Shown here: positions 19,881 through 43,542 of the stretch, one piece after another
How the letters are laid out: each line of letters starts with the position of its first letter
Numbering within the stretch: the first letter of the stretch is position 1
From: Escherichia phage FritzSarasin
Reading direction: 5' to 3' (one strand)
Sequence record: MZ501069
Length of the DNA: 51,777 nucleotides
The notes under the pieces: generated by a model
Database searches by the model: none
What the model was told of the DNA's origin: nothing
Seen by the model: the letters and a program-made list of their open reading frames with translations, nothing else
Made by a program: the position numbers and the translations under genes

Positions 19881-20507
19881 TTAATCATAGTGTGATGCAT
19901 TTATAACCAAAACAGATGAAGCGGTGTAAATACCAACAGGTCCAGGGGTTTGTGCAACCTGCCTAGAAAAAGAGTAGATCCCGTTACCATACGCGGCAGC
20001 TTGAGACTCAAAAATCATAAATCCACCTAAAGCCGGATTAGGTACAGAGTTTAACGCTGTTAGTGATGGCATTATTGCGCAAGGGTAGCCCAGGTTAACA
20101 TCAAACGCGATCCCGCTCACACCAACTTGCTTTGCATCAAGCGGCCTCATTTTTCCATGATAAACCATTTCACCATGAGCGTTATAAAACGCTATGCCGT
20201 GACTACCTGGAGGAGTCACCATGTTACTAAAAGCATAAACAATAACCTCCCCTTGATTATCAGATCTATCAATTCTTATTGCGTGCCTTCCACCATTGTT
20301 AAATTGCGTAAATGATATGTATGATTTAGCAGTCAATCTAACAAAGAAAAAACATACCCTATCAACAGGAATTGACGAAGTAAAAACGGTTCCGGTATTA
20401 GCAGATATTACGGCCCGATCAATTAGATTAACTGGAGTGAAATCTGGACTTAACCATAACGATCCGTCTGGTTTTTTTATGCTCATCCCGTACATTATCA
20501 CCCCCAA
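19881..20507 (-). CDS. hypothetical protein (cor-like operon, distal gene)
   Basis: 208 aa; start overlaps stop of upstream ORF by 10 nt. Confidence 0.55.
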   Translation of the reverse strand: MGVIMYGMSIKKPDGSLWLSPDFTPVNLIDRAVISANTGTVFTSSIPVDRVCFFFVRLTAKSYISFTQFNNGGRHAIRIDRSDNQGEVIVYAFSNMVTPPGSHGIAFYNAHGEMVYHGKMRPLDAKQVGVSGIAFDVNLGYPCAIMPSLTALNSVPNPALGGFMIFESQAAAYGNGIYSFSRQVAQTPGPVGIYTASSVLVINASHYD

Positions 20508-20776
20508 AAAGTATATATATATCTTGAATCAGATCCAGAAAGTCCACTCCATGTAACGGTGTCGCCACTTACTCCTAAGCTTGGTGCGCCAGGGTCGCCA
20601 CCGCGCCAGGAATTCATGCCAACATATATTGCTTTCAATGATTTACCTGGCGGCCTGTTTTGGTAAGTCTTGCTACCTGATGGCTGAGTGAATTTATCAA
20701 GAAAGAAAACAGGCGTTAAAAGTCCTGTAACTTCCCTCCCTCGATCGTCATATATTGCATAACCATATTGCGCCAT
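20498..20776 (-). CDS. hypothetical protein (cor-like operon, middle gene)
   Basis: 92 aa; start overlaps lipoprotein stop by 1 nt (TAATG). Confidence 0.5.
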   Translation of the reverse strand: MAQYGYAIYDDRGREVTGLLTPVFFLDKFTQPSGSKTYQNRPPGKSLKAIYVGMNSWRGGDPGAPSLGVSGDTVTWSGLSGSDSRYIYTFWG

Positions 20777-21051
20777 TAATTACACCTCAAATCAATAAAT
20801 TTACTTTCATTTTGCCAGCGGTTGATAAATTTAACTTCTTTATTGTCAACGCTCAACCTGTATTGCTTTTGGCTGAATCTGTTTTCGCGGACTGCATTAA
20901 TTTTGACCTCATGGAATCCGTTAACAGGGAATGTTTTAACGTTAAATTTTGCCGTGCAATCGATCTCTTTGAAGCCGCCAGTAGGCGACGCTGCGCATCC
21001 GGTCAGAGCGGCTACGGTGGCGATAACTGCGATTAATTTTTTCATCTTCAA
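20776..21051 (-). CDS. small lipoprotein, Cor-like superinfection-exclusion candidate
   Basis: 91 aa; signal peptide with lipobox LTGC; Cor-like by size, lipoprotein character and proximity to tail genes; homology not verified. Confidence 0.5.
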   Translation of the reverse strand: MKMKKLIAVIATVAALTGCAASPTGGFKEIDCTAKFNVKTFPVNGFHEVKINAVRENRFSQKQYRLSVDNKEVKFINRWQNESKFIDLRCN

Positions 21052-21100
21052 TACTCCTTAGTTGTCGTTGCCTGTAACTATACACGATCCGACAAGCGGC

Positions 21101-21120
21101 GTTTAGCAAAAAGTGCTACT
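21101..21120 (-). promoter_or_regulatory. conserved promoter-module motif, variant copy (leftward)
   Basis: Minus-strand reading AGTAGCACTTTTTGCTAAAC, about 21 nt, then TATAGT; lipoprotein ATG about 70 nt downstream. Confidence 0.5.
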
Positions 21121-21488
21121 TGTTATTTTTTGTTTTTCGGTGTTATCGAATTTAAGACGGCGTAAATTTAGCTCAAATTTTAGCCAACATGAGAGCGATA
21201 AACAATCAATAAAATAGATATATACATATAAAATCAATAGTTTATTTATTTATGTATGTATATTTGTTTTTTCTTGTTATCTGTGTTTCTTGTGGTTTTG
21301 GTTGTTTGTGGTGATTTTTCTTTCTGAGTATCTGTATGTGCCATCATTCATGTGTATGTATATAATCCGGCGTATCTGAGAGAACAAGGGAACAAGAAAA
21401 ATAACACATATTAATCATTGACTTACATTTCAAATTTGTTTTCTTGCAATCTAAGAACGTTTAGAAAACAGAAAAAACAAAACAACTA

Positions 21489-21516
21489 TTGACTAAATCA
21501 ACCAAATGGCTACAAT
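21489..21516 (+). promoter_or_regulatory. sigma70-type promoter (TTGACT-N16-TACAAT)
   Basis: Near-consensus -35 and -10 about 30 nt upstream of exonuclease ATG. Confidence 0.55.
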
Positions 21517-21546
21517 GCACACACAAAGCAACAAGGAGCATCAAAG

Positions 21547-22602
21547 ATGAGTGATTTTAACGCCTACACTAGCGAAGAAATGAGCAATGAGCTTTATCAT
21601 GATCCTAACGCGTGGACGGCTGAATACGTCAGCGGTTCCAGCTTGGCGGAGATTTACAGCACTTGCCCGGCGTACTGGAAGTACAAGCCTCGCCAGGAAA
21701 CTAAGGCACTTGTTTTCGGTACGCAGTCGCATACCAATTTTGAAAGCAATGAGTTATTCGAAAAAACATATCGCCGCGCACCGTCGCAGGATGATTTTAA
21801 AGATCTGATCACAAGTCAAACGGCGTTAGCCTCAAAGCTGAAATCTTTTGGCCTGAAAGGTACAACGGGTAAGCAATACCCAGAATTGCTGGAAATGCTG
21901 TACAAGTGCGGTGAGGATCTCAATGTATGGTGGCTTATCGAAATGATGGCAGAATGCCAGGCCGCAGCGGACGGCGTGCAGTTAATCGACGCGAAAGATT
22001 ATGATGCCTGTGTAGCGATGCGGCGCGTACTTGAGGCAATACCTGAGCATAATGCTTGCATGAATAGCCCAACCGCGCAGCGTGAAATGTCAATATTCGG
22101 GATCATCAATGGCGTAAAAGTTAAAGTGCGCCTTGATCACGTTGACGTAAACAAGGATGTAAAGGCCACAATCATTAACGGTTACGACGAAAAAGGCCGA
22201 CCGATTTATGAAGAAGTCATCTATCCAGAAGCTGTGATTATCACTGACTATAAAACAACGGTTAGCGCAAATCCGGTTGACTTCCAGCGCCTGGCTTACA
22301 ATCACGGCTATTATCTCAAAATGGCTTTGCAGCATGATTTATTTAAAAAGGCGTATCCAGACGAGGAAAGGCCAGTAATTGTGAGATTGCTTGCTCAAGA
22401 GAAGAAAGAGCCTTACTTGCCGCTCGCATTCCGCATGAACATTGAGCAATTGAAGATCGGGCGTATCCAGTACATGAGCGTGATCAACAAGTTCAACGTT
22501 TGCCAACAGTTAGATGAATGGCCTTCGTATGCAAACGGGCAGCCAGAAATTGATCTTGATACTCCTGATTGGGTGCGCGCTCAATTCAGGCAGTATCTAT
22601 GA
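21547..22602 (+). CDS. putative recombination exonuclease (PD-(D/E)XK type)
   Basis: 351 aa; block VIITDYKTT resembles the D...(D/E)xK nuclease core; first gene of an exo-Erf-SSB module. Confidence 0.5.
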   Translation: MSDFNAYTSEEMSNELYHDPNAWTAEYVSGSSLAEIYSTCPAYWKYKPRQETKALVFGTQSHTNFESNELFEKTYRRAPSQDDFKDLITSQTALASKLKSFGLKGTTGKQYPELLEMLYKCGEDLNVWWLIEMMAECQAAADGVQLIDAKDYDACVAMRRVLEAIPEHNACMNSPTAQREMSIFGIINGVKVKVRLDHVDVNKDVKATIINGYDEKGRPIYEEVIYPEAVIITDYKTTVSANPVDFQRLAYNHGYYLKMALQHDLFKKAYPDEERPVIVRLLAQEKKEPYLPLAFRMNIEQLKIGRIQYMSVINKFNVCQQLDEWPSYANGQPEIDLDTPDWVRAQFRQYL

Positions 22603-26827: not shown

Positions 26828-27784
26828 TTATAGCAGTGATTCGGGCTTGTAGAGTTTTCTTTCTACGCCCTGTTTAAAATTATCGTTAACAGGCATCATT
26901 ATGTCAAGACCTCTTTCCTCTGCCGCGATTATCACATCACGATCATCCTTCCGGCAGACTACGCGCATTCTTCTTTCTCCTTTATATCTATGCGCAACCA
27001 TTTCAAGATTTGAAGGAGTAAAGCAAGCCCACACCTCTTGACCAGTTGATAAATGAACATGCTGGGAATCAACCCAATCAAGGCACAAATAGATCGTCTT
27101 ATCCGTGCTACCTGTTTTAACAACAGATCCGCGCGTGTAGTCGCGAGCTAAAAACCAATCCTTTCCATCCTCATCAATGAAAAGCACGTTACACATTTCA
27201 TCATCCAGCCCGTCATCATGCACCAGGTGACAAGGTAGCGCGTGAATGTATCGACCATCCTTGACGCCGCAATCATAATGACAATCTTCCGGCGGATATA
27301 TCCCCTCATAAACGCTTAAGGGTGTGCGATCGAATTTTAATGTTTTTGCCATCACTTTTTCGCAGCATTCATGACTTGCCTGTTTCCCGAACGAGTAGCC
27401 AGAAGAACGTGAAGCGCGCTTGTTTGCTCTGATCCTGTAATCTTGTGGCACTTTGCCGAGGAAGCGGCCCAAAATGTTGATGGCCTCGCTGTAAGGTTCG
27501 CCAGTTAATTTCATTAACCAACCGATCCCTGTGTCGTTACCGCATACGTTGCAGATCGCGCCGCCGTCGCCCTCTTCATTTAGCTTATCAGTCCATCTAA
27601 AACGATCCTTACCGCCGCAGTGTGGGCAAGGCTGATGCTTTTTGTTGAAAACATCGCTATGCAGTCCGCAAATGCTTTGTAGTGCTTCACGCCATAACCC
27701 CTTCATATATGGCAAAACATCTTCTTTCTGATAGGTCATAAAGTTTTCAGTATTCATAGCAACCTCAATAAAAAAGCCCAGCAA
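26828..27784 (-). CDS. putative DNA primase (zinc-ribbon type)
   Basis: 318 aa; CPHCGG...CNVCG zinc-ribbon motif near N-terminus; adjacent to helicase region. Confidence 0.55.
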   Translation of the reverse strand: MLGFFIEVAMNTENFMTYQKEDVLPYMKGLWREALQSICGLHSDVFNKKHQPCPHCGGKDRFRWTDKLNEEGDGGAICNVCGNDTGIGWLMKLTGEPYSEAINILGRFLGKVPQDYRIRANKRASRSSGYSFGKQASHECCEKVMAKTLKFDRTPLSVYEGIYPPEDCHYDCGVKDGRYIHALPCHLVHDDGLDDEMCNVLFIDEDGKDWFLARDYTRGSVVKTGSTDKTIYLCLDWVDSQHVHLSTGQEVWACFTPSNLEMVAHRYKGERRMRVVCRKDDRDVIIAAEERGLDIMMPVNDNFKQGVERKLYKPESLL

Positions 27785-28375: not shown

Positions 28376-30373
28376 ATGATTCCAAATATCGAAAAACAAA
28401 TATCAGCGTTAGGCGAGGCAGTAATAAAAAGCATCCAAGAGCGATTCACGGTTGGCAATATAGTGCCTTATCCTTATCAGTGCGTTGCGTATGCCGAGAT
28501 CGCAAAGCGCATGAAAAACTATGAGCATCCTTTCTTTGTTAAGGCTTCTGTGTCGGCTGGCAAAACATTGATGTTTGCGATGGTTGCTGCGCAATGCCGC
28601 AAAATGGGATTGAAAATGATGGTCCTTGCTCGCCAGGCTGAAATTGTTGATCAGGATTCGGAAGAGATCAGCAATCTTGGCGTGCCAAACTCAATCTATT
28701 GCGCCGGACTGAAAACAAAAAGCGCATACTTTCCGATCGTAGTCGGTTCTGAGGGCACTGTAGTAAACGGATTGTTTAAGTCGTTAGGTGATTATGTTCC
28801 GCACGTTATCGGTATTGATGAATGTCACCAGGTGGATTGGGAGGATCTCGCCGACGCGATAGAAAATAATGAATCTTACCAGCAGATGACCACTAAGAAG
28901 GATTTGCCTGTACTGATTGGAGAAGAACAGCAATTTGATTCCAATGGCGATCCAATGTTCGGAACAGGGCGCACACAGTACACCGTAATAATCATGGAAA
29001 TGATGCGCAGGTGTCGCGAGGCATACGGGCACGAATTGCGAATATTCGGTATGACTGGATCTGAGTTTCGCGGCGTGGTTCCAATACTGGTCGAAGATAA
29101 GAACAAAAAGGGATTCTGGCGTGAGCAGGTGACTAACATAGACACAAACTACTTAATCAAATTTGGTTCGGTAGTGCCAACAAATTTCGGCGACGTAGGC
29201 GACCTGGGGTATGACCTTTCAGAGTTCGAAGCCAGTAGCGAGGATGGCGTTTCAGACTTTGACGCTAAAACATTGCGCAAGATGGAAGAAAAAATCCATC
29301 AAGACGCAACAATGACACAGAAAATCATGGCTAAAGTCCATGAGATATGCAAAGACAGGAACGGAGTTTTAGTTACATGCGCAGGGGAAAGACATTGCAA
29401 GGAGGCCGCCGCCGCACTGCCGCAAGGCGTTGAATACAGGATCATAACTGGCAAAACTGGAGATAATCAGCGTAAAGAGTGGCTGAGGGAGGCATACGAG
29501 GGGAAAGTAAAATACATCTTCCAGGTACAGGCGCTTACCACTGGCGTTAACGTTCCGTTTTGGGATACTTCGGTAATACTGAGAAAGATAGGATCTCTAA
29601 CATTGCTTATCCAGCTTTTGGGGCGCGGTATGCGACTGCTTAAGCAATGGCACATTGAGCAGGGATTCAAGAAAAAAGACCATCTTGTATTGGATTTTGC
29701 CGGTACTATGGATGAGTTAGGGGATTTGTATTTCGATCCAATCCTTGAGCAAGCGCAATTCCAAAAGAGATTTACAAACGGGAAAGAGCCTAAGACTTGT
29801 CCGATATGTGGAACGCTAAACAGCTTTTACGCTCGCCGATGTATGCACGTAGACGATAACGGGAAGAGATGCGAGCATTTTTGGACTTACAGAATTTGCG
29901 AGGACCAGGTAGATCCGAGAACGAAAAAGATAATCAAGCGCGGTTGCGGAACAAAAAACGACGTAGTGGCGAGAGTTTGCCGTTGTTGCGATATTTCTCT
30001 TGTCGATCCTAACGAGAAGTTAAGCGGTAAGCACTACACCAAAAACGATTGGTGCAACGTTAAATCTTTCCGCGTTGATATGACGAAAAACCAGAAAGGA
30101 ATTGTTTTTTGCTATGAGCTTGAGGCCAACGGCGACACGTTCAAGGCATACGAAAGATTTTTCCCTGAGTCAGAAAGCAACATTTGCCGGACGATATGGA
30201 GAAAAATAGCATTGCAGCACATACCGGATCGCAAGATTGCTGGTATGGTGGCGAGCTATAGAAATGCGCGTAAAATAATGTCATACGCTCATCACATCAT
30301 GCCTCCTGTACGCGTAACGCATCGCAAAAACGGCAAAGGTGAGGATAACATTGCAAAACGGGAGTTTGTTTAA
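28376..30373 (+). CDS. SF2 DEAD/DEAH-box-like helicase
   Basis: 665 aa; Walker A ASVSAGKT, motif II IGIDECHQ (DExH); Cys-rich C-terminal region. Confidence 0.8.
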   Translation: MIPNIEKQISALGEAVIKSIQERFTVGNIVPYPYQCVAYAEIAKRMKNYEHPFFVKASVSAGKTLMFAMVAAQCRKMGLKMMVLARQAEIVDQDSEEISNLGVPNSIYCAGLKTKSAYFPIVVGSEGTVVNGLFKSLGDYVPHVIGIDECHQVDWEDLADAIENNESYQQMTTKKDLPVLIGEEQQFDSNGDPMFGTGRTQYTVIIMEMMRRCREAYGHELRIFGMTGSEFRGVVPILVEDKNKKGFWREQVTNIDTNYLIKFGSVVPTNFGDVGDLGYDLSEFEASSEDGVSDFDAKTLRKMEEKIHQDATMTQKIMAKVHEICKDRNGVLVTCAGERHCKEAAAALPQGVEYRIITGKTGDNQRKEWLREAYEGKVKYIFQVQALTTGVNVPFWDTSVILRKIGSLTLLIQLLGRGMRLLKQWHIEQGFKKKDHLVLDFAGTMDELGDLYFDPILEQAQFQKRFTNGKEPKTCPICGTLNSFYARRCMHVDDNGKRCEHFWTYRICEDQVDPRTKKIIKRGCGTKNDVVARVCRCCDISLVDPNEKLSGKHYTKNDWCNVKSFRVDMTKNQKGIVFCYELEANGDTFKAYERFFPESESNICRTIWRKIALQHIPDRKIAGMVASYRNARKIMSYAHHIMPPVRVTHRKNGKGEDNIAKREFV

Positions 30374-30792
30374 TGGCTATAACTGATAAAGGCGATTATC
30401 TTGAGTTTTACGAAAGGGATCCAACCGACACGAGAAGGGAAGTTAATCACCAGATAGATAGTTTTCAGTGGTTGACTTATGCTCATCCTTATTTGCTGGC
30501 GTGGCATACGGTAAACGAGAATGAGAAGTCTAAAGTAACGGCGATGATTGATCAGCAGTCCGGCTTGGTTAAGGGAGTAAGCGATTTCATCATCCTGATT
30601 GGTTTAAACGGAAAATACCCCTTTGCAGCGATTGAGATCAAACGAGTGAATAAATCAGGCAAGGGGAAAGCATCACCAGTCAGCGATGAACAAAAGGCTT
30701 TTTTGCGTCGCGTTCGCAGCTTAGGAGGATTCGCTGCGGTAGCCTACGGATTCAATCAGTTTAAGTTGGCTATTGAATACATGCTTAAATAG
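30373..30792 (+). CDS. VRR-NUC domain nuclease
   Basis: 139 aa; core GVSDFIILIGLNGKYPFAAIEIKR fits the D...E.K pattern; start overlaps helicase stop. Confidence 0.55.
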   Translation: MAITDKGDYLEFYERDPTDTRREVNHQIDSFQWLTYAHPYLLAWHTVNENEKSKVTAMIDQQSGLVKGVSDFIILIGLNGKYPFAAIEIKRVNKSGKGKASPVSDEQKAFLRRVRSLGGFAAVAYGFNQFKLAIEYMLK

Positions 30793-30808
30793 CACTTTTT
30801 GTTAAAAC
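30788..30808 (+). promoter_or_regulatory. conserved promoter-module motif copy (rightward)
   Basis: AATAGCACTTTTTGTTAAAAC, inverted repeat GGCGCGATGGATTGCGCC, CATAAT; contains stop TAG of the upstream gene; Dam ATG 85 nt downstream. Confidence 0.6.
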
Positions 30809-35239: not shown

Positions 35240-35635
35240 TCATGTGATATTGAATTTACGGCGCAGTGCTTCAAGATCTTGTCTATTAGCTTTTGCCTGG
35301 AACAATTCATCATCGCCCATCTCCCCTATTCTAGCCATATCCCTGATCCAGTCGTTGCGCATACCATCCAGGCTATACAATTCGAATCCGAAAGGCCGCT
35401 TTGACGATCCTTTGGACCAGTATTTACCGCAGACCCCATCTATATAGCCAGCCGTCATCATTCTTGCGCAAAATTCCTTAGATGCAAGGCTGGCGAACAT
35501 TCGCGGCGTAAGTCCGGCGGCCCGTGCGAGCCGCTCACATTCTCTATGATGATAGATAAATTTGGCTATGTGCTGCCTGTTAAACCAGTCGTATGACTCA
35601 CACCATTTATACAGATCAAGCAAAAACATAATCAT
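35240..35635 (-). CDS. hypothetical protein, coupled to upstream P-loop ATPase
   Basis: About 131 aa; start overlaps stop of the ATPase gene (ATGA); no recognisable motif. Confidence 0.5.
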   Translation of the reverse strand: MIMFLLDLYKWCESYDWFNRQHIAKFIYHHRECERLARAAGLTPRMFASLASKEFCARMMTAGYIDGVCGKYWSKGSSKRPFGFELYSLDGMRNDWIRDMARIGEMGDDELFQAKANRQDLEALRRKFNIT

Positions 35636-37212
35636 CCCAGCAGTATTGGATTGACAAAAATAACACCATTAATCACACAAACATAATTTCTTTCTTCCAG
35701 CATTGGCAGCAAGTGCCCTTCTATCCTCTTCATTACGCCAGCTTGACCAACGAAAGGTTTTACCTTTCTCGCTGATTCGTACAGGGCGCGAATATTCAGA
35801 ATCCCTTTATTAGCCTTGCCGTGTCTAGTGATCAATTCAATCAATTTGCCCATTTCAGCATCATCACCAGCATAACCAGAAGCATTGGCGGCGCTAATGT
35901 ATGTTTTGCTCAATTCCTGAAACATGATCAGCGCCTCTTGCATTGTTTCCACGTCGATCTCTTTCGACTTCTGCGGGTATCCAGCAGGATTAAACCAGTT
36001 GCGGATAACATGCAGGACGGAAGCAAGCCTGATCACCTGTTTATCCATTTTACCCAGCGCACCGCGTAACATTGTATGAGAATACTTTCCGCCGTCTGCA
36101 AGATGCGGTTCCATATCCTGGCGAGCAATGTTGAGCACTCGCATAGCTGAACGGCTTATTTTCAGCGATATATTTGATTCGCTCATGATGTTATGCACCA
36201 ATTGATAATATTGGGCCTTCAATTCAGGATCCACCGCCTCATAGGTAGAATCACCATTTTCATCAATGAATGAGCGACGGCCTAAGAATGATTCCTCACG
36301 GACCAACAAAAAGCGCTCACTCACACCGATACCGCGCGATCCAGCGTCCATGATTCCGCTTATCGTTTCATCCTGGGCTATAACGCTCATACATCCAAGT
36401 GCGCGAAAACTCATGTTATTGTCAGCATTAGCACGGGCAATTGATACGTGACCATTATCCCACGCCTTAAGCACTAGCTCGCTGTTAGTCTTCCTTTCGC
36501 TATTGGCATAGGTCAAGCCTAACAGGCTGTTAATACTTGTTGCTTCGTCAGATATTACGGCAAAGTTACCTTGCTTGTTGTTGATTTTCGCCAAGCCTTC
36601 TGGAGTGGTATCTGAAACAGGGAAAGTTATATCACACATCTTTTCCAGCTTCTCCTCCAGATCCTCTTTTTCCTGGTATAGAGATTCCATATCAGCGCCT
36701 GATCTTTCGCTTTTCATCTCCTTTGCAAGACCTGCCAACTTTGCCTGTATTTTCTTTCTTTCCTTGCGGCGTTGCTCGTTGATCTTCTCAACTTCCGCAA
36801 TCATCGGAGCAATAGCCATACTGTTGATCGCAGATTTACCAGTTGACGGCGGCTGGCTTGTAACTACGTAAAGCGCAGTCGGCTGATCGGTTCCGTGATA
36901 GTCAACTGTAAAGCGCCCAAGCATAGCGGCAGAAATGCAGCCGATAAAGTGCATGTAAGCCGATGATTCAGGGAATTGAACTGATCGCGCAATGCTGCGT
37001 GATAACTTGCCGACAACATCAATATCATTACCAAGAGAAATTACGGGGTAGCGATCGTGACCGCTATTTACATCCTTTACGTCGCCCCAAAAGCTGGACG
37101 ACTGGCGATAGCCGTTAGCCTGAATTGATACGCGAACTGGCGAAAGGTTCTGGCTTTCAGCCATAGCGATTATTTGCTGTGGAGTTAATTTGTTCGTTTC
37201 TAATGAAAACAT
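35632..37212 (-). CDS. P-loop NTPase of unknown function (DUF3987-like, unverified)
   Basis: 526 aa; Walker A-like PPSTGKS and Walker B-like AVISDEA; charged coiled-coil segment; long C-terminal domain with no recognisable motif. Confidence 0.6.
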   Translation of the reverse strand: MFSLETNKLTPQQIIAMAESQNLSPVRVSIQANGYRQSSSFWGDVKDVNSGHDRYPVISLGNDIDVVGKLSRSIARSVQFPESSAYMHFIGCISAAMLGRFTVDYHGTDQPTALYVVTSQPPSTGKSAINSMAIAPMIAEVEKINEQRRKERKKIQAKLAGLAKEMKSERSGADMESLYQEKEDLEEKLEKMCDITFPVSDTTPEGLAKINNKQGNFAVISDEATSINSLLGLTYANSERKTNSELVLKAWDNGHVSIARANADNNMSFRALGCMSVIAQDETISGIMDAGSRGIGVSERFLLVREESFLGRRSFIDENGDSTYEAVDPELKAQYYQLVHNIMSESNISLKISRSAMRVLNIARQDMEPHLADGGKYSHTMLRGALGKMDKQVIRLASVLHVIRNWFNPAGYPQKSKEIDVETMQEALIMFQELSKTYISAANASGYAGDDAEMGKLIELITRHGKANKGILNIRALYESARKVKPFVGQAGVMKRIEGHLLPMLEERNYVCVINGVIFVNPILLG

Positions 37213-40863: not shown

Positions 40864-40885
40864 GTTTTTAACAAAAAGTGCTATT
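40864..40885 (-). promoter_or_regulatory. conserved promoter-module motif copy (leftward)
   Basis: Minus-strand reading AATAGCACTTTTTGTTAAAAAC + hairpin GATGCGCT...AGCGCATC with TATAGT. Confidence 0.6.
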
Positions 40886-42109: not shown

Positions 42110-42167
42110 TGCTATCTCCTGAGCGGTTCGTTTCGATGTGTGTAATGTACCCGATCAGACGGCCTGA

Positions 42168-42188
42168 GTTTTAACAAAAAGTGCTATT
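42168..42188 (-). promoter_or_regulatory. conserved promoter-module motif copy (leftward)
   Basis: Minus-strand reading AATAGCACTTTTTGTTAAAAC, about 22 nt, TACATT; ATG about 80 nt downstream. Confidence 0.55.
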
Positions 42189-42742
42189 TGACGGTTAGCG
42201 CCAGGATTGTGATCGAAATAATCAAAAGTAATCATTCGTAATCAAATCAAGTCAAAATGATGATTGCCTTTGCAAATTTGATGAGAAAAGTAATCACGTT
42301 TAATCATTGGTTGCAGGGGAGATAGTGAAACCTTCCCCTCTTGCCTCACTTTTTTGCCTGGCTGTCAGTGGTTGTTGTCTTTTGTTCACCCCTGTTACCG
42401 ATTTCAGGCGGCGTGTTTCCGCGCGGTTTTCCGGTGTAGCGAAAACGGAAAAAACAAAGAAAATCCTTTATAATACATTGAAAATAAAGATTATTTATTT
42501 ATATATATCTATAATGTTTTCTTTTTGTTCTCACTGTTACAGTGCTTTTTGTTGGTTATGGTGTGGTTGTGTGTGGGCATATATGGATAGTTGCGCGCGC
42601 GGCGGATTGCATATGTATATATACTTTTTCCGGCGGATTGCGTTAACAGCGTGAACAGAAAAATAACAGCCGTGAAATCAATAACTTGCGCATGATTTTG
42701 TAGTTTTTTGATATTGGTAACGTTTTGAATACAACAAAAACA

Positions 42743-42770
42743 TTGACACGCACCAAATAGCTTTTATAAT
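42743..42770 (+). promoter_or_regulatory. consensus sigma70 promoter (TTGACA-N16-TATAAT)
   Basis: Perfect -35 and -10 hexamers about 30 nt upstream of ATG 42802. Confidence 0.65.
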
Positions 42771-42801
42771 GCGCCAACAGTCAACAACTGGAGGAAAGGA
42801 A

Positions 42802-43266: not shown

Positions 43267-43526
43267 TGAAAAAGGCATTAATCGGCGTTTTGGCGGCAAT
43301 GACACTCCTGACCGGATGCGAAAAGGCATCAGAATCAACGGTTGTCGTAGGCGTGGAGTCAGATTTCAAAGTCGGTCGCCTGTTCACTGTTGACGGATGC
43401 ACAGCATACAGATTCTATGATAACGGTCGCGCGATCTATTACACCAATTGCAAAGGCGCAACGGATAGCACGTACAACAGCGGAAAGAACGTAATGCACC
43501 AGCAAGTCACAACAGATATTAAATAG
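43266..43526 (+). CDS. putative lipoprotein
   Basis: 86 aa; signal peptide with lipobox LLTGC; stop TAG embedded in the next motif copy. Confidence 0.6.
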   Translation: MKKALIGVLAAMTLLTGCEKASESTVVVGVESDFKVGRLFTVDGCTAYRFYDNGRAIYYTNCKGATDSTYNSGKNVMHQQVTTDIK

Positions 43527-43542
43527 CACTTTTTGTTAAAAC
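43522..43542 (+). promoter_or_regulatory. conserved promoter-module motif copy (rightward)
   Basis: AATAGCACTTTTTGTTAAAAC + hairpin GCCAGGCGCAAAGCCTGGC + CATAAT; ATG 77 nt downstream. Confidence 0.6.

What the first reader, a model, noticed from the sequence alone, without database searches (positions are those of the whole stretch)
21052..21546. AT-rich divergent regulatory hub I: candidate origin or early control region
A roughly 500-bp non-coding stretch between the leftward lipoprotein operon and the rightward recombination module. It contains runs such as ATATATACATATA and TTTATTTATTTATGTATGTATAT, GT-rich repeats (TGTGGTTTTGGTTGTTTGTGGTG) and a near-consensus promoter (TTGACT-N16-TACAAT, 21489-21516). 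Non-coding regions this long are unusual in a compact phage genome.
Basis: seen in the sequence. Interest (0 to 1): 0.55.

Follow-up and report, generated by a model that had tools for sequence, protein, structure and literature searches.

The report
Duplicated early-promoter, origin-like control module
This 500-bp gap in a T1-like coliphage is a conserved non-coding control region, one of two related copies per genome, combining a strong early promoter with short repeats around the most easily melted DNA in the genome, which makes it the best current candidate for the still-unmapped T1-family replication origin.

Summary
Window 21046-21546 is non-coding, the GC minimum of the genome, and its longest ORF-free stretch. 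The window is a Warwickvirus (Drexlerviridae), 99.9% identical to phage tonnikala.

The gap is conserved in position and layout in all 16 Drexlerviridae compared, including T1. It is more conserved than third codon positions of the adjacent exonuclease gene.

Its parts are:
- a leftward promoter for the cor lipoprotein operon, built on the family's 19-21-nt direct repeat (DR);
- an invariant rightward sigma70 promoter (TTGACT-N16-TACAAT) for exo-erf-ssb;
- about 370 bp between them, with phased short repeats (TGTTnTC/GAnAACA) in both orientations, two IHF-consensus sites, and an AT core that is the least stable 100 bp of the genome.

New finding: a paralogous copy lies at about 42360-42780 (nhmmer E 1.8e-33), upstream of the only other matching sigma70 promoter. 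The repeat sequence differs between lineages but is shared by both copies within a genome, which implies a phage-encoded binding protein.

I could not decide between origin and early-transcription control. I favour an origin-plus-promoter module (confidence 0.4) over pure transcriptional control (0.35). Small ORFs, known RNAs, DnaA boxes and P4-type membership were tested and rejected.

The parts
20776..21045 (-). Cor-like lipoprotein gene (context, left flank). It is the first gene of the leftward three-gene operon.
   Evidence: ORF. Annotated as Cor superinfection exclusion protein or hypothetical protein in relatives. Lipobox LTGC is seen in the translation.
21054..21059 (-). Ribosome-binding site AAGGAG of cor.
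   Evidence: Read from the sequence. CTCCTT is conserved in the alignment.
21077..21082 (-). -10-like hexamer TATAGT of the leftward DR-class promoter. The inferred transcription start is near 21070.
   Evidence: It lies 18 nt after the DR. In 17 of 21 DR copies a -10-like hexamer lies exactly 19 nt after the DR, and in 2 copies 18 nt. The block AACTATACACGATC is conserved in relatives that carry cor.
21101..21119 (-). Copy of the genome-wide direct repeat (DR) GTAGCACTTTTTGCTAAAC, the upstream element of the cor promoter.
   Evidence: 24 matches to ATAGCACNNNTTGNTAAAA in the window against 2.8 expected. This is the element reported for phage TLS in PMC11447400.
21120..21148 (+). Left repeat cluster S1-S3, with TGTT at 21121, 21131 and 21141 (10-bp phasing): TTGTTAT, TTGTTTTTC, GTGTTATCG.
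   Evidence: The positions are conserved in Tempevirinae and the motif varies by lineage.
21150..21180 (.). Conserved block ATTTAAGACGGCGTAAATTTAGCTCAAA, shared with module II (GATTTCAGGCGGCGTG).
   Evidence: Alignments; direct repeat D3.
21197..21263 (.). AT-rich core and candidate DNA-unwinding element. It includes ATATATACATATA (21218-21230) and TTTATTTATTTATGTATGTATAT (21241-21263).
   Evidence: Least stable 100-bp window of the genome starts at 21198, and the second least stable 50-bp window at 21214. GC minimum. Three of the four genomic TATACATA/TATGTATA sites lie in region I: two in this core and one at 21355-21362 in the box listed below. Conserved in 16 phages.
21232..21244 (+). IHF core-consensus site A, AATCAATAGTTTA (pattern WATCAANNNNTTR).
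   Evidence: Only 6 matches to the pattern in the whole window on both strands. The match is exact in Warwickvirus, Hanrivervirus and JohannLBurckhardt.
21264..21290 (+). Repeat cluster S4-S6 immediately right of the core, with TGTT at 21265, 21275 and 21284.
21291..21313 (+). GT-rich tract TGTGGTTTTGGTTGTTTGTGGTG. The core GGTGATT is conserved, and module II has a counterpart.
21353..21375 (.). Second AT box plus GC clamp, TGTATGTATATAAT-CCGGCGTA. It is conserved in both modules and across lineages.
   Evidence: (D3, D6). The scan also sees a GTGCCA-N17-TATAAT promoter-like site here, but it is not conserved as a promoter.
21380..21406 (-). Inverted repeat cluster S7-S9, GAGAACA / GGAACA / ATAACA (reverse complement of TGTTCTC, TGTTCC, TGTTAT).
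   Evidence: These are the best-conserved repeat positions: GTGAACA in F115, PMBT35 and W011D, and GAAAC in RCIP0096.
21413..21425 (+). IHF core-consensus site B, AATCATTGACTTA. It has one mismatch here.
   Evidence: Exact match in Hanrivervirus, KLB26, PMBT35 and W011D, and exact in window module II at 42676.
21435..21487 (.). Promoter-proximal conserved blocks: TTTGTTTTC (S10), GAACGTTT (21455-21462) and the A-rich tract AGAAAACAGAAAAAACAAAACAAC, which is UP-element-like.
21489..21516 (+). Sigma70 early promoter P_exo, TTGACT-N16-TACAAT. The inferred transcription start is near 21523.
   Evidence: Both hexamers (TTGACT and TAnAAT) are conserved in all 16 Drexlerviridae aligned, including T1. 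Predicted as P51 in phage TLS. One of only two matches to TTGAC[AT]-N16-TA[CT]AAT in the window.
21533..22602 (+). RBS AAGGAG (21533-21538) and the exoVIII/RecE-like gene (21547-22602), followed by an 85-aa ORF, Erf and SSB (context, right flank).
42360..42780 (+). Paralogous module II. It has the same order of blocks and ends in the promoter TTGACA-N16-TATAAT (42743-42770), upstream of the rightward early operon.
   Evidence: nhmmer profile of region I hits 42451-42772 with E 1.8e-33. Pairwise alignment. Module II was also found in JakobBernoulli, KLB26 and RCIP0096, and weakly in T1.
42169..42187 (-). DR element at the left edge of region II, forming a leftward promoter like the one at 21101-21119.

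Best explanation
The gap is one of two paralogous cis-acting modules of about 400 bp that every Drexlerviridae genome carries. Each module joins a host-sigma70 early promoter to an upstream platform where proteins assemble on the DNA.

Shown:
- The rightward promoter TTGACT-N16-TACAAT reads into exo-erf-ssb.
- A leftward DR-class promoter reads into the cor operon.
- Between them lie phased 6-8-bp repeats in both orientations, two IHF-consensus sites, and the most easily melted DNA of the genome.
- The repeat sequence is lineage-specific but shared by both modules of a genome.

Inferred:
- A phage-encoded sequence-specific protein binds the repeats and IHF bends the DNA.
- Negative supercoiling from the two divergent promoters helps to open the AT core.
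- There the phage replication proteins (a DUF3987/MCM-like SF6 helicase with a C-terminal winged helix, and a P4-alpha-like primase) would start replication.

On this reading the module is a transcription-activated replication origin. The second module at about 42.5 kb would be either a second origin or a P4-crr-like partner. The same bound protein would probably also set the timing of the early promoter.
For: Conservation:
- A gap of 370-530 bp sits upstream of exo in Warwickvirus, Hanrivervirus, Changchunvirus, Tlsvirus, Henuseptimavirus, Klebsiella phages and T1. It persists even where cor is absent.
- Identity to Hanrivervirus is 70-72%, against 53-57% at third codon positions of exo. Matches per length are 0.685 against 0.374±0.04 for shuffled sequence.
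- The element is non-coding.

Physical properties:
- GC minimum of the genome.
- Least stable 100-bp and 200-bp windows.

Repeats:
- TTGTT/AACAA occurs 11 times in 400 bp, against about 1.8 expected from the genome-wide count.
- TGTT[ACT]TC and its reverse complement occur 5 times in 400 bp, against about 0.3 expected from the genome-wide count.
- Spacing is 10 bp at 21121/31/41 and 21265/75/84. The left-hand repeats and the right-hand repeats have opposite orientation.

Lineage specificity shared by both modules:
- T1: all 6 genomic TGTAACA/TGTTACA heptamers lie in regions I and II.
- RCIP0096: GTTTC[CG] occurs 8 and 5 times.
- KLB26: TGTTCA[CT].
- L027: TGTTACC three times at 10-11-bp spacing plus inverted copies.
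- L026: 6 of 9 GGGCGAA heptamers lie in one gap directly upstream of the DUF3987 helicase operon.

Paralogy: nhmmer E 1.8e-33.

IHF core sites: 2 of the 6 in the genome are in the modules.

Replication genes:
- The primase is homologous to P4 alpha residues 20-263.
- The DUF3987 model (pLDDT 88) matches MCM and has a C-terminal winged helix, in line with PMC4889955.

Precedent: the annotated P4 ori and crr are two distant clusters of 8-bp repeats at 10/11-bp spacing in both orientations.

Literature: no origin is known for T1-like phages.
Against: - There is no initiation data of any kind.
- No initiator was identified. T1 and contig L025 have 99.6% identical DUF3987 helicases and 96.8-98.4% identical regulator, primase and SF2 helicase, yet their repeat zones in region II differ (they share only TTACAC). 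None of these proteins is therefore an obvious reader of the lineage-specific repeats.
- The repeats are short, T-rich and degenerate, so part of the enrichment is compositional.
- Each module is colinear with, and at a fixed distance from, a sigma70 promoter. In T1 region II two repeats overlap the -10 and +20 positions, which looks like an operator.
- There are no DnaA boxes and no GATC cluster.
- Cumulative GC skew has local minima at both modules, but also at the third divergent point near 28.3 kb, which has no module. The skew simply follows gene orientation.
- Predicted curvature is unremarkable: a local maximum of about 3 sd, not in the top ten, from my own unvalidated implementation.
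Confidence: 0.4

Rival explanations
1. Pure transcriptional control. The module is an extended upstream control region of the two main early sigma70 promoters. A phage-encoded factor binds the repeats and, with IHF-mediated bending, either boosts early transcription right after injection or shuts it off at the early-to-middle switch. This would resemble phi29 p4/p6 at its central control region, or Mu repressor plus IHF at Pe/Pc. The AT core would be only promoter-upstream flexible or curved DNA.
For: - The module occurs exactly where the two matching sigma70 promoters occur and nowhere else.
- TLS has only three predicted sigma70 promoters, and two of them (P01, P51) sit at the positions of TLS's region II and region I.
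- The paralogy runs through to the -10 hexamer.
- The distance from AT core to promoter is kept in both modules, whereas the distance to the leftward promoter is not.
- T1 region II has repeats over the -10 and at +20.
- The A-rich tract next to the -35 looks like an UP element.
- All other genes use DR-class promoters, which implies a programmed early-to-middle switch.
Against: - About 300 bp of conserved sequence, including a highly meltable core 230-330 bp upstream of the start site, is far more than known bacterial promoter control regions need.
- Most repeats lie too far upstream to occlude RNA polymerase.
- No repressor or activator was identified. The Cro/YdaS-like regulator is 97% identical between T1 and L025 although their repeats differ.
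Confidence: 0.35
2. No specific protein platform. The region is AT-rich spacer DNA kept for generic reasons, such as promoter-upstream curvature, H-NS or Fis binding, or room for two divergent promoters. The short repeats would be compositional or slippage products, homogenised between the two copies by gene conversion.
For: - The repeats are short and T-rich.
- TTGTT also occurs inside the DR.
- AT-rich sequences align easily, with a shuffled baseline of 0.36-0.37.
- The phage encodes its own recombination system (exo-erf), so conversion between copies is plausible.
Against: - Block-by-block colinearity is kept across subfamilies and between paralogs that are only 54-57% identical overall.
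- Conservation exceeds that of synonymous-like sites of the neighbouring gene.
- Repeat identity changes while repeat positions are kept.
- Motif classes do not follow the host genus.
Confidence: 0.1
3. The region encodes something: either small proteins, as some GenBank records annotate three minus-strand ORFs here, or a non-coding RNA.
For: - PHANOTATE-style annotations in NorthRox, Kalemo and others call ORFs of 29-44 aa.
- The plus-strand fold has z = -1.98.
Against: - All five candidate ORFs are broken by stops or frameshifts outside Warwickvirus, while the DNA stays conserved.
- There is no Rfam match at E ≤ 1.
- Consensus folds are only -6.4 and -4.8 kcal/mol over 404 columns. The 'compensated' pairs join repeats 270 nt apart, so they reflect concerted repeat change rather than a helix.
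- The minus-strand fold has z = -0.89.
- No terminator is predicted inside the gap.
Confidence: 0.05
4. The region is a packaging (pac) or recombination site.
For: - Region II lies about 230 bp from position 1 of the T1 record, which is the pac end (terminal repeat 1-2800).
- Several relatives' records start or end next to region II.
Against: - Region I is 21 kb from that end.
- The pac-side segment of region II (TAATCA repeats, 42200-42330) is not part of the shared module.
- T1-type headful packaging uses one pac site (established knowledge of the family; PMC11447400).
Confidence: 0.05

Closest known systems
Satellite phage P4 ori plus crr (type 1 repeats bound by the alpha primase-helicase)
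   Same: - Two distant clusters of short (8-bp) repeats at 10/11-bp spacing, in both orientations, in AT-rich non-coding DNA.
- The window's primase is homologous to the alpha primase domain (tblastn E 2.5e-14).
- Some relatives use the heptamer TGTTCAC, which is the P4 repeat minus one base.
   Different: - The exact octamer TGTTCACC is at chance level in the window: 2 copies, one of them in region II.
- No homolog of the alpha helicase or of its C-terminal origin-binding domain (Pox_D5) was found.
- The helicase here is a separate DUF3987/SF6 protein.
- Each module here carries its own sigma70 promoter.
Iteron-plus-DUE origins such as lambda ori and plasmid oriV (pSC101, R6K)
   Same: - Direct repeats at helical phasing next to an AT-rich unwinding region.
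- An IHF site between the repeats and the AT-rich region.
- Nearby transcription that could activate the origin.
   Different: - The repeats are much shorter and more degenerate (6-8 bp against 17-22 bp).
- No cognate initiator gene lies adjacent or was identified.
- There are no DnaA boxes.
- There are two copies per genome.
Phage early-promoter control regions (phi29 A2b/A2c/A3 with p4 and p6; Mu Pe/Pc operators with IHF)
   Same: - Divergent promoters separated by multiple binding sites and a bend.
- Control of the early-to-later switch.
- In phi29 the same DNA-binding protein (p6) serves both replication and transcription.
   Different: - Those regions are 200 bp or less and are not duplicated.
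- No homolog of p4, p6 or Mu c was detected among the window proteins that were scanned.
- The comparison rests on my own knowledge of those systems and was not tested here.
Phage TLS predicted promoters P51 and P01, and the 21-nt direct repeats (PMC11447400)
   Same: - P51 sits at the same position, upstream of TLS's exodeoxyribonuclease gp51, as P_exo does here.
- P01 sits upstream of TLS's first early gene, as the module II promoter does here.
- The DR at 21101-21119 is a copy of their repeat.
   Different: - That paper reports no iterons anywhere in the genome and no origin.
- In the parts I read and searched, it does not describe the conserved upstream module or its duplication.
- It leaves the function of the DR open.

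Membership tests
Sigma70-dependent promoter | -35 and -10 hexamers close to TTGACA and TATAAT with a 16-18-nt spacer | tested here: met
   TTGACT (5/6), N16, TACAAT (5/6) at 21489-21516.
Sigma70-dependent promoter | Conserved among relatives and correctly placed upstream of a gene with an RBS | tested here: met
   Both hexamers are conserved in 16 phages including T1. The RBS lies 17 nt and the ATG 31 nt after the -10.
Sigma70-dependent promoter | Transcription actually starts there | not testable with these tools
   No RNA data were available, and no T1-family transcriptome was found in the library.
Drexlerviridae 19-21-nt direct repeat (DR) element | Match to aaATAGCACnnnTTGnTAAAA, oriented with transcription, upstream of a start codon | tested here: met
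   GTAGCACTTTTTGCTAAAC (2 mismatches) on the minus strand, 56-74 nt upstream of the cor ATG.
Iteron-type replication origin | Three or more similar repeats at helical phasing | tested here: inconclusive
   TGTT cores lie at 21121/31/41 and 21265/75/84, with inverted copies at 21383/91/403. The units are only 6-8 bp and degenerate.
Iteron-type replication origin | Adjacent AT-rich DNA-unwinding element | tested here: met
   The least stable 100-bp and 200-bp windows of the genome start at 21198 and 21166. GC is 26.7%.
Iteron-type replication origin | A cognate initiator that binds the repeats | tested here: inconclusive
   Candidates exist: the winged helix of DUF3987 and a Cro-like helix-turn-helix protein. 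The T1 against L025 comparison does not link either to the lineage-specific repeats. Binding itself cannot be tested here.
Iteron-type replication origin | Replication initiates there (marker frequency, 2D gels, autonomous replication) | not testable with these tools
   No data were available. Papers on the family state that the origin is unknown.
oriC-like, DnaA-dependent origin | Cluster of DnaA boxes (TTATCCACA) and GATC sites | tested here: not met
   There is no perfect DnaA box anywhere in the window, and GATC is not enriched in the region.
P4 ori/crr | Type 1 repeat TGTTCACC in multiple copies | tested here: not met
   Two copies in the whole window (1.4 expected), none in region I and one in region II.
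P4 ori/crr | Alpha-type protein with a C-terminal origin-binding domain (Pox_D5) | tested here: not met
   Only the primase domain of alpha has a homolog in the window.
IHF binding site | Core consensus WATCAANNNNTTR | tested here: met
   Exact at 21232-21244. One mismatch at 21413-21425, but exact there in four other lineages and in module II. Binding was not tested.
Known structured RNA (Rfam) | Covariance-model match | tested here: not met
   No match at E ≤ 1 in 20500-22000 on either strand.
Small protein-coding genes | Reading frame kept open in relatives | tested here: not met
   Stops and frameshifts appear in all lineages outside Warwickvirus.

The most novel reading that the evidence does not exclude
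The two modules would together form the long-sought replication origin system of T1-family phages. In this reading it is a bipartite arrangement of the ori/crr type, or two origins. It would be read by a fast-evolving, still unidentified phage specificity factor, and fired by divergent early transcription, with the same complex timing early gene shut-off.
Probability: 0.3. Interest if true: 0.65.

Novelty: new member of a known kind. Interest (0 to 1): 0.5.

Why it matters
T1 is one of the seven classic T phages and a notorious laboratory contaminant, yet papers on the family still state that no origin or iterons can be found.

This analysis turns that open question into two short, precisely bounded targets: 21120-21410 and about 42360-42740. 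They can be deleted, cloned, or checked by marker-frequency sequencing.

It also suggests a simple transcription plan for the family:
- a few sigma70 early promoters, two of them carrying this module;
- about twenty DR-class promoters for everything else.

Finally, it flags spurious small-ORF annotations in public records.

Tried and rejected
- **Rfam.** A search of 20500-22000 gave nothing.
- **RNA structure.** Consensus folding on both strands gave negligible energy. The apparent covariation is between distant repeats, not within a helix.
- **Small ORFs.** The ORFs annotated by others are not conserved.
- **DnaA boxes and GATC clusters.** Absent or not enriched.
- **GC skew.** It follows gene orientation only. 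There are local minima at both modules but also at 28 kb.
- **DNA curvature.** My own wedge-model script gave only a moderate local bend at 21128, so I gave this no weight.
- **P4 membership.** The octamer is at chance level and there is no homolog of the alpha origin-binding domain.
- **Search for the repeat-binding protein.**
  - Pfam and PHROGs scans of 37 proteins gave only unknown-function families for the early genes. The queries were early proteins, replication and recombination proteins, and flanking proteins of the window, plus T1, L025 and P4 counterparts.
  - The first early gene is DUF7174, near-neutral in charge (pI 5.7, K+R 28 against D+E 29), which gives no hint of DNA binding.
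  - The covariation test, T1 against L025, argues against DUF3987, the Cro-like regulator, the primase and the SF2 helicase as readers of the lineage-specific repeats.
- **PDB sequence search.** Nothing useful for DUF3987.
- **Literature.** Searches for a T1 origin, a transcriptome or earlier descriptions of this region found none. The T1 genome paper is not held.
Full report
**Identity of the window.**
The window is a complete T1-like siphophage genome of Drexlerviridae, Tempevirinae, genus Warwickvirus. The 701 bp around the finding are 99.9% identical to Escherichia phage tonnikala.

The finding lies between a leftward three-gene operon and the rightward recombination operon:
- The leftward operon begins with a Cor-like lipoprotein gene (20776-21045; its real start is the ATG at 21045).
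- The rightward operon is exoVIII/RecE-like (21547-22602), an 85-aa ORF, Erf and SSB.

The gap 21046-21546 stands out in four ways:
- It is the GC minimum of the genome, 26.7% against 44.8% overall.
- It is the longest stretch without any ORF of 50 aa or more on either strand: 431 bp, the next being 161 bp.
- It contains the least stable 100-bp and 200-bp duplex windows, about 4.7 sd from the mean.
- TTGAC[AT]-N16-TA[CT]AAT occurs only twice in the window, against 0.03 expected.

**Conservation.**
- The gap alone finds 154 phage records, and 136 of them cover at least 80% of it. Identity is above 92% within Warwickvirus and about 74% to Hanrivervirus.
- A gap of 370-530 bp precedes exo in every lineage I fetched, including T1 itself (29851-30377). 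It is present even where cor is missing, as in F115 and RCIP0096.
- Identity to Hanrivervirus is 70-72%, while third codon positions of the adjacent exo gene are only 53-57% identical.
- Matches per length are 0.685 against 0.374±0.04 for shuffled partners.
- The small minus-strand ORFs that some GenBank records annotate here are broken by stops and frameshifts outside Warwickvirus.
- No Rfam family matches, and consensus RNA folds are negligible.

The element is therefore conserved non-coding DNA.

**Anatomy, from left to right.**
1. *Leftward DR-class promoter.* A minus-strand copy of the family's 19-21-nt direct repeat sits at 21101-21119. The window has 24 copies against 2.8 expected, and the element was reported for TLS with unknown function. 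TATAGT follows 18 nt later. Across the genome a -10-like hexamer lies exactly 19 nt after the DR in 17 of 21 copies. This is a DR-class promoter for cor.
2. *Left repeat cluster.* Three TGTT-core repeats lie exactly 10 bp apart, at 21121, 21131 and 21141.
3. *AT core (21197-21263).* It contains an exact IHF core consensus at 21232-21244.
4. *Second repeat cluster.* Three more repeats lie at 21265, 21275 and 21284, followed by a GT-rich tract.
5. *AT box plus GC clamp.* The box TGTATGTATATAAT-CCGGCGTA lies at 21353-21375.
6. *Inverted repeats.* Three repeats in the opposite orientation occupy 21380-21406.
7. *Second IHF-like site (21413-21425).* It has one mismatch here and is exact in four other lineages.
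8. *Promoter-proximal tract.* An A-rich tract runs up to the promoter.
9. *The sigma70 promoter (21489-21516).* Both hexamers are conserved in all 16 phages aligned, including T1. It sits upstream of exo, as TLS's predicted 'P51' does; P51 is one of only three sigma70 promoters predicted for TLS.

**A second copy.**
The other large intergenic region, about 42110-42800, contains a colinear paralog of the module.
- A profile built from region I of 15 Tempevirinae hits 42451-42772 over nearly its full length with E 1.8e-33, and nothing else in the genome at E < 0.005.
- This copy ends in the only other matching promoter, TTGACA-N16-TATAAT at 42743-42770. Like TLS's P01, it sits upstream of the first early gene.
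- It also has a leftward DR at its left edge.
- Module II is present in JakobBernoulli (E 2.7e-21), KLB26 (1.1e-19) and RCIP0096 (3.2e-12), and weakly in T1.

The duplication is therefore old and family-wide.

**The repeats change by lineage but are shared by both modules.**

| Lineage | Repeat | Source |
|---|---|---|
| Warwickvirus, Hanrivervirus | TGTT[AC]TC | |
| KLB26, PMBT35, W011D, F115 | TGTTCA[CT] | |
| RCIP0096 | GTTTC[CG], 8 copies in module I and 5 in II | |
| T1 | TGTAACA/TGTTACA; all six genomic copies lie in regions I and II | |

Contigs fetched through the helicase add three more types:
- L027 has TGTTACC three times at 10-11-bp spacing, plus inverted copies.
- L025 has TTGTCTA and TGTGAC types.
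- L026 has GGGCGAA, with 6 of 9 copies in one gap directly upstream of the DUF3987 helicase operon. That gap also carries two IHF-consensus sites and an AT core.

Motif class does not follow host genus. Kept positions with changing sequence, shared between paralogs that are only about 55% identical, point to a phage-encoded sequence-specific binding protein. This is an inference; no binding was tested.

**Who might bind, and what for.**
The phage encodes three candidates:
- a primase homologous to the primase domain of P4 alpha;
- a DUF3987 protein whose model (pLDDT 88) matches MCM helicases and ends in a winged helix. This agrees with the published view that DUF3987 proteins are SF6 replicative helicases;
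- a Cro/YdaS-like regulator.

P4's annotated ori and crr are a precedent for two distant clusters of 8-bp repeats at 10/11-bp spacing. Membership of that family fails, however. The P4 octamer is at chance level here, and the alpha origin-binding domain has no homolog.

A direct test also came out negative. T1 and contig L025 have 99.6% identical DUF3987 proteins and 96.8-98.4% identical regulator, primase and SF2 helicase. Yet their repeat zones differ, sharing only TTACAC. The genes that do diverge next to region II are of unknown function. The binder is therefore unidentified.

**Origin or early control?**

For an origin:
- phased repeats in both orientations around the most meltable DNA in the genome;
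- IHF-consensus sites;
- a position between divergent promoters, which would feed negative supercoiling into the core;
- in L026, a position directly upstream of the helicase operon;
- the absence of any other origin candidate in the family.

For pure transcriptional control:
- the module is always attached, at a fixed distance, to one of the few sigma70 promoters;
- the paralogy runs through the -10 hexamer;
- in T1 region II two repeats sit over the -10 and at +20, like operators.

GC skew does not help, because it follows gene orientation and also dips at the module-free divergent point near 28 kb. I put the origin-plus-promoter reading at 0.4 and pure transcriptional control at 0.35. The two are not exclusive.

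**Verdict.**
The finding is real and functional. It had not been described in the literature I could search. It belongs to a known kind: an iteron/AT-rich control region at a divergent promoter. Its main value is that it gives precise, testable targets for the unmapped origin and the early transcription switch of T1-family phages.

Noticed in passing
window, 24 sites (e.g. 30789-30807 +, 43523-43541 +, 40866-40884 -): The family's direct repeat ATAGCACTTTTTGTTAAAA behaves as a promoter element. A -10-like hexamer (CATAAT, TATAGT or TATAAT) lies exactly 19 nt after it in 17 of 21 copies, and 18 nt after it in 2 copies. The mean best -10 score is 4.8 against 3.6 at random positions. T1 has the same repeat, also 24 matches. 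The TLS paper leaves its function open.
   Followed up: partly
window 42110-42800: This second large intergenic region holds the paralogous module II. To its left is a segment unique to region II, with five TAATCA repeats (about 42200-42330). In T1 coordinates that side lies next to position 1 of the record, the pac end and terminal repeat. The segment may therefore be pac-related.
   Followed up: partly
window 35632-37212 (-): The gene annotated 'putative helicase' is a DUF3987 protein. Its AlphaFold model (pLDDT 88) matches MCM subunits by Foldseek and ends in a winged helix (residues about 450-520). It lies in the leftward operon that starts at region II.
   Followed up: yes
window 26828-27757 (-): The primase has the Zn-ribbon of primase-helicases and is homologous to residues 20-263 of P4 alpha (tblastn E 2.5e-14). 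It lacks the helicase and origin-binding parts of alpha. No primase CDS is listed on either side of the start of the tonnikala record, where the gene would lie, so it appears to be split and unannotated there.
   Followed up: partly
L002 1654-1984 and L003 1654-1984 (equivalent to window 21103-21433): GenBank records NorthRox, Kalemo and several others annotate three or four tiny hypothetical proteins inside this gap. These ORFs are not conserved beyond the genus and are probably over-calls.
   Followed up: yes
phage collection hits H69-H79 (e.g. MG065657.1): Eighteen records named 'Campylobacter phage' (47-50 kb, host Campylobacter jejuni) match this Escherichia-phage non-coding region at about 75% over 95% of its length. 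They look like Hanrivervirus-type T1-like phages, which suggests mislabelling or contamination.
   Followed up: no
L026 8773-9768 (Logan contig ERR5982104_284): This phage contig has a DUF3987 helicase 53% identical to the window's and a different gene order: helicase, primase, SF2 helicase, exo, AAA_24 and SSB in one cluster. It has a single similar module directly upstream of the helicase operon. That module has six GGGCGAA repeats, two exact IHF-consensus sites, an AT core, a DR and a sigma70-like promoter.
   Followed up: partly
L009 (Escherichia phage MatMar): MatMar is classified as Warwickvirus, but its region I and exo gene are as far from the window (68% and 76% identity) as Hanrivervirus is. 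This suggests a mosaic junction at or near the module.
   Followed up: no
L025 2212-2898 compared with T1 (L019 48675-48836 plus 1-538): Two phages with near-identical replication proteins have a conserved AT core but largely replaced repeat zones in region II. The genes immediately flanking the region are also replaced or only 53% identical. This looks like a local swap of a specificity cassette.
   Followed up: partly
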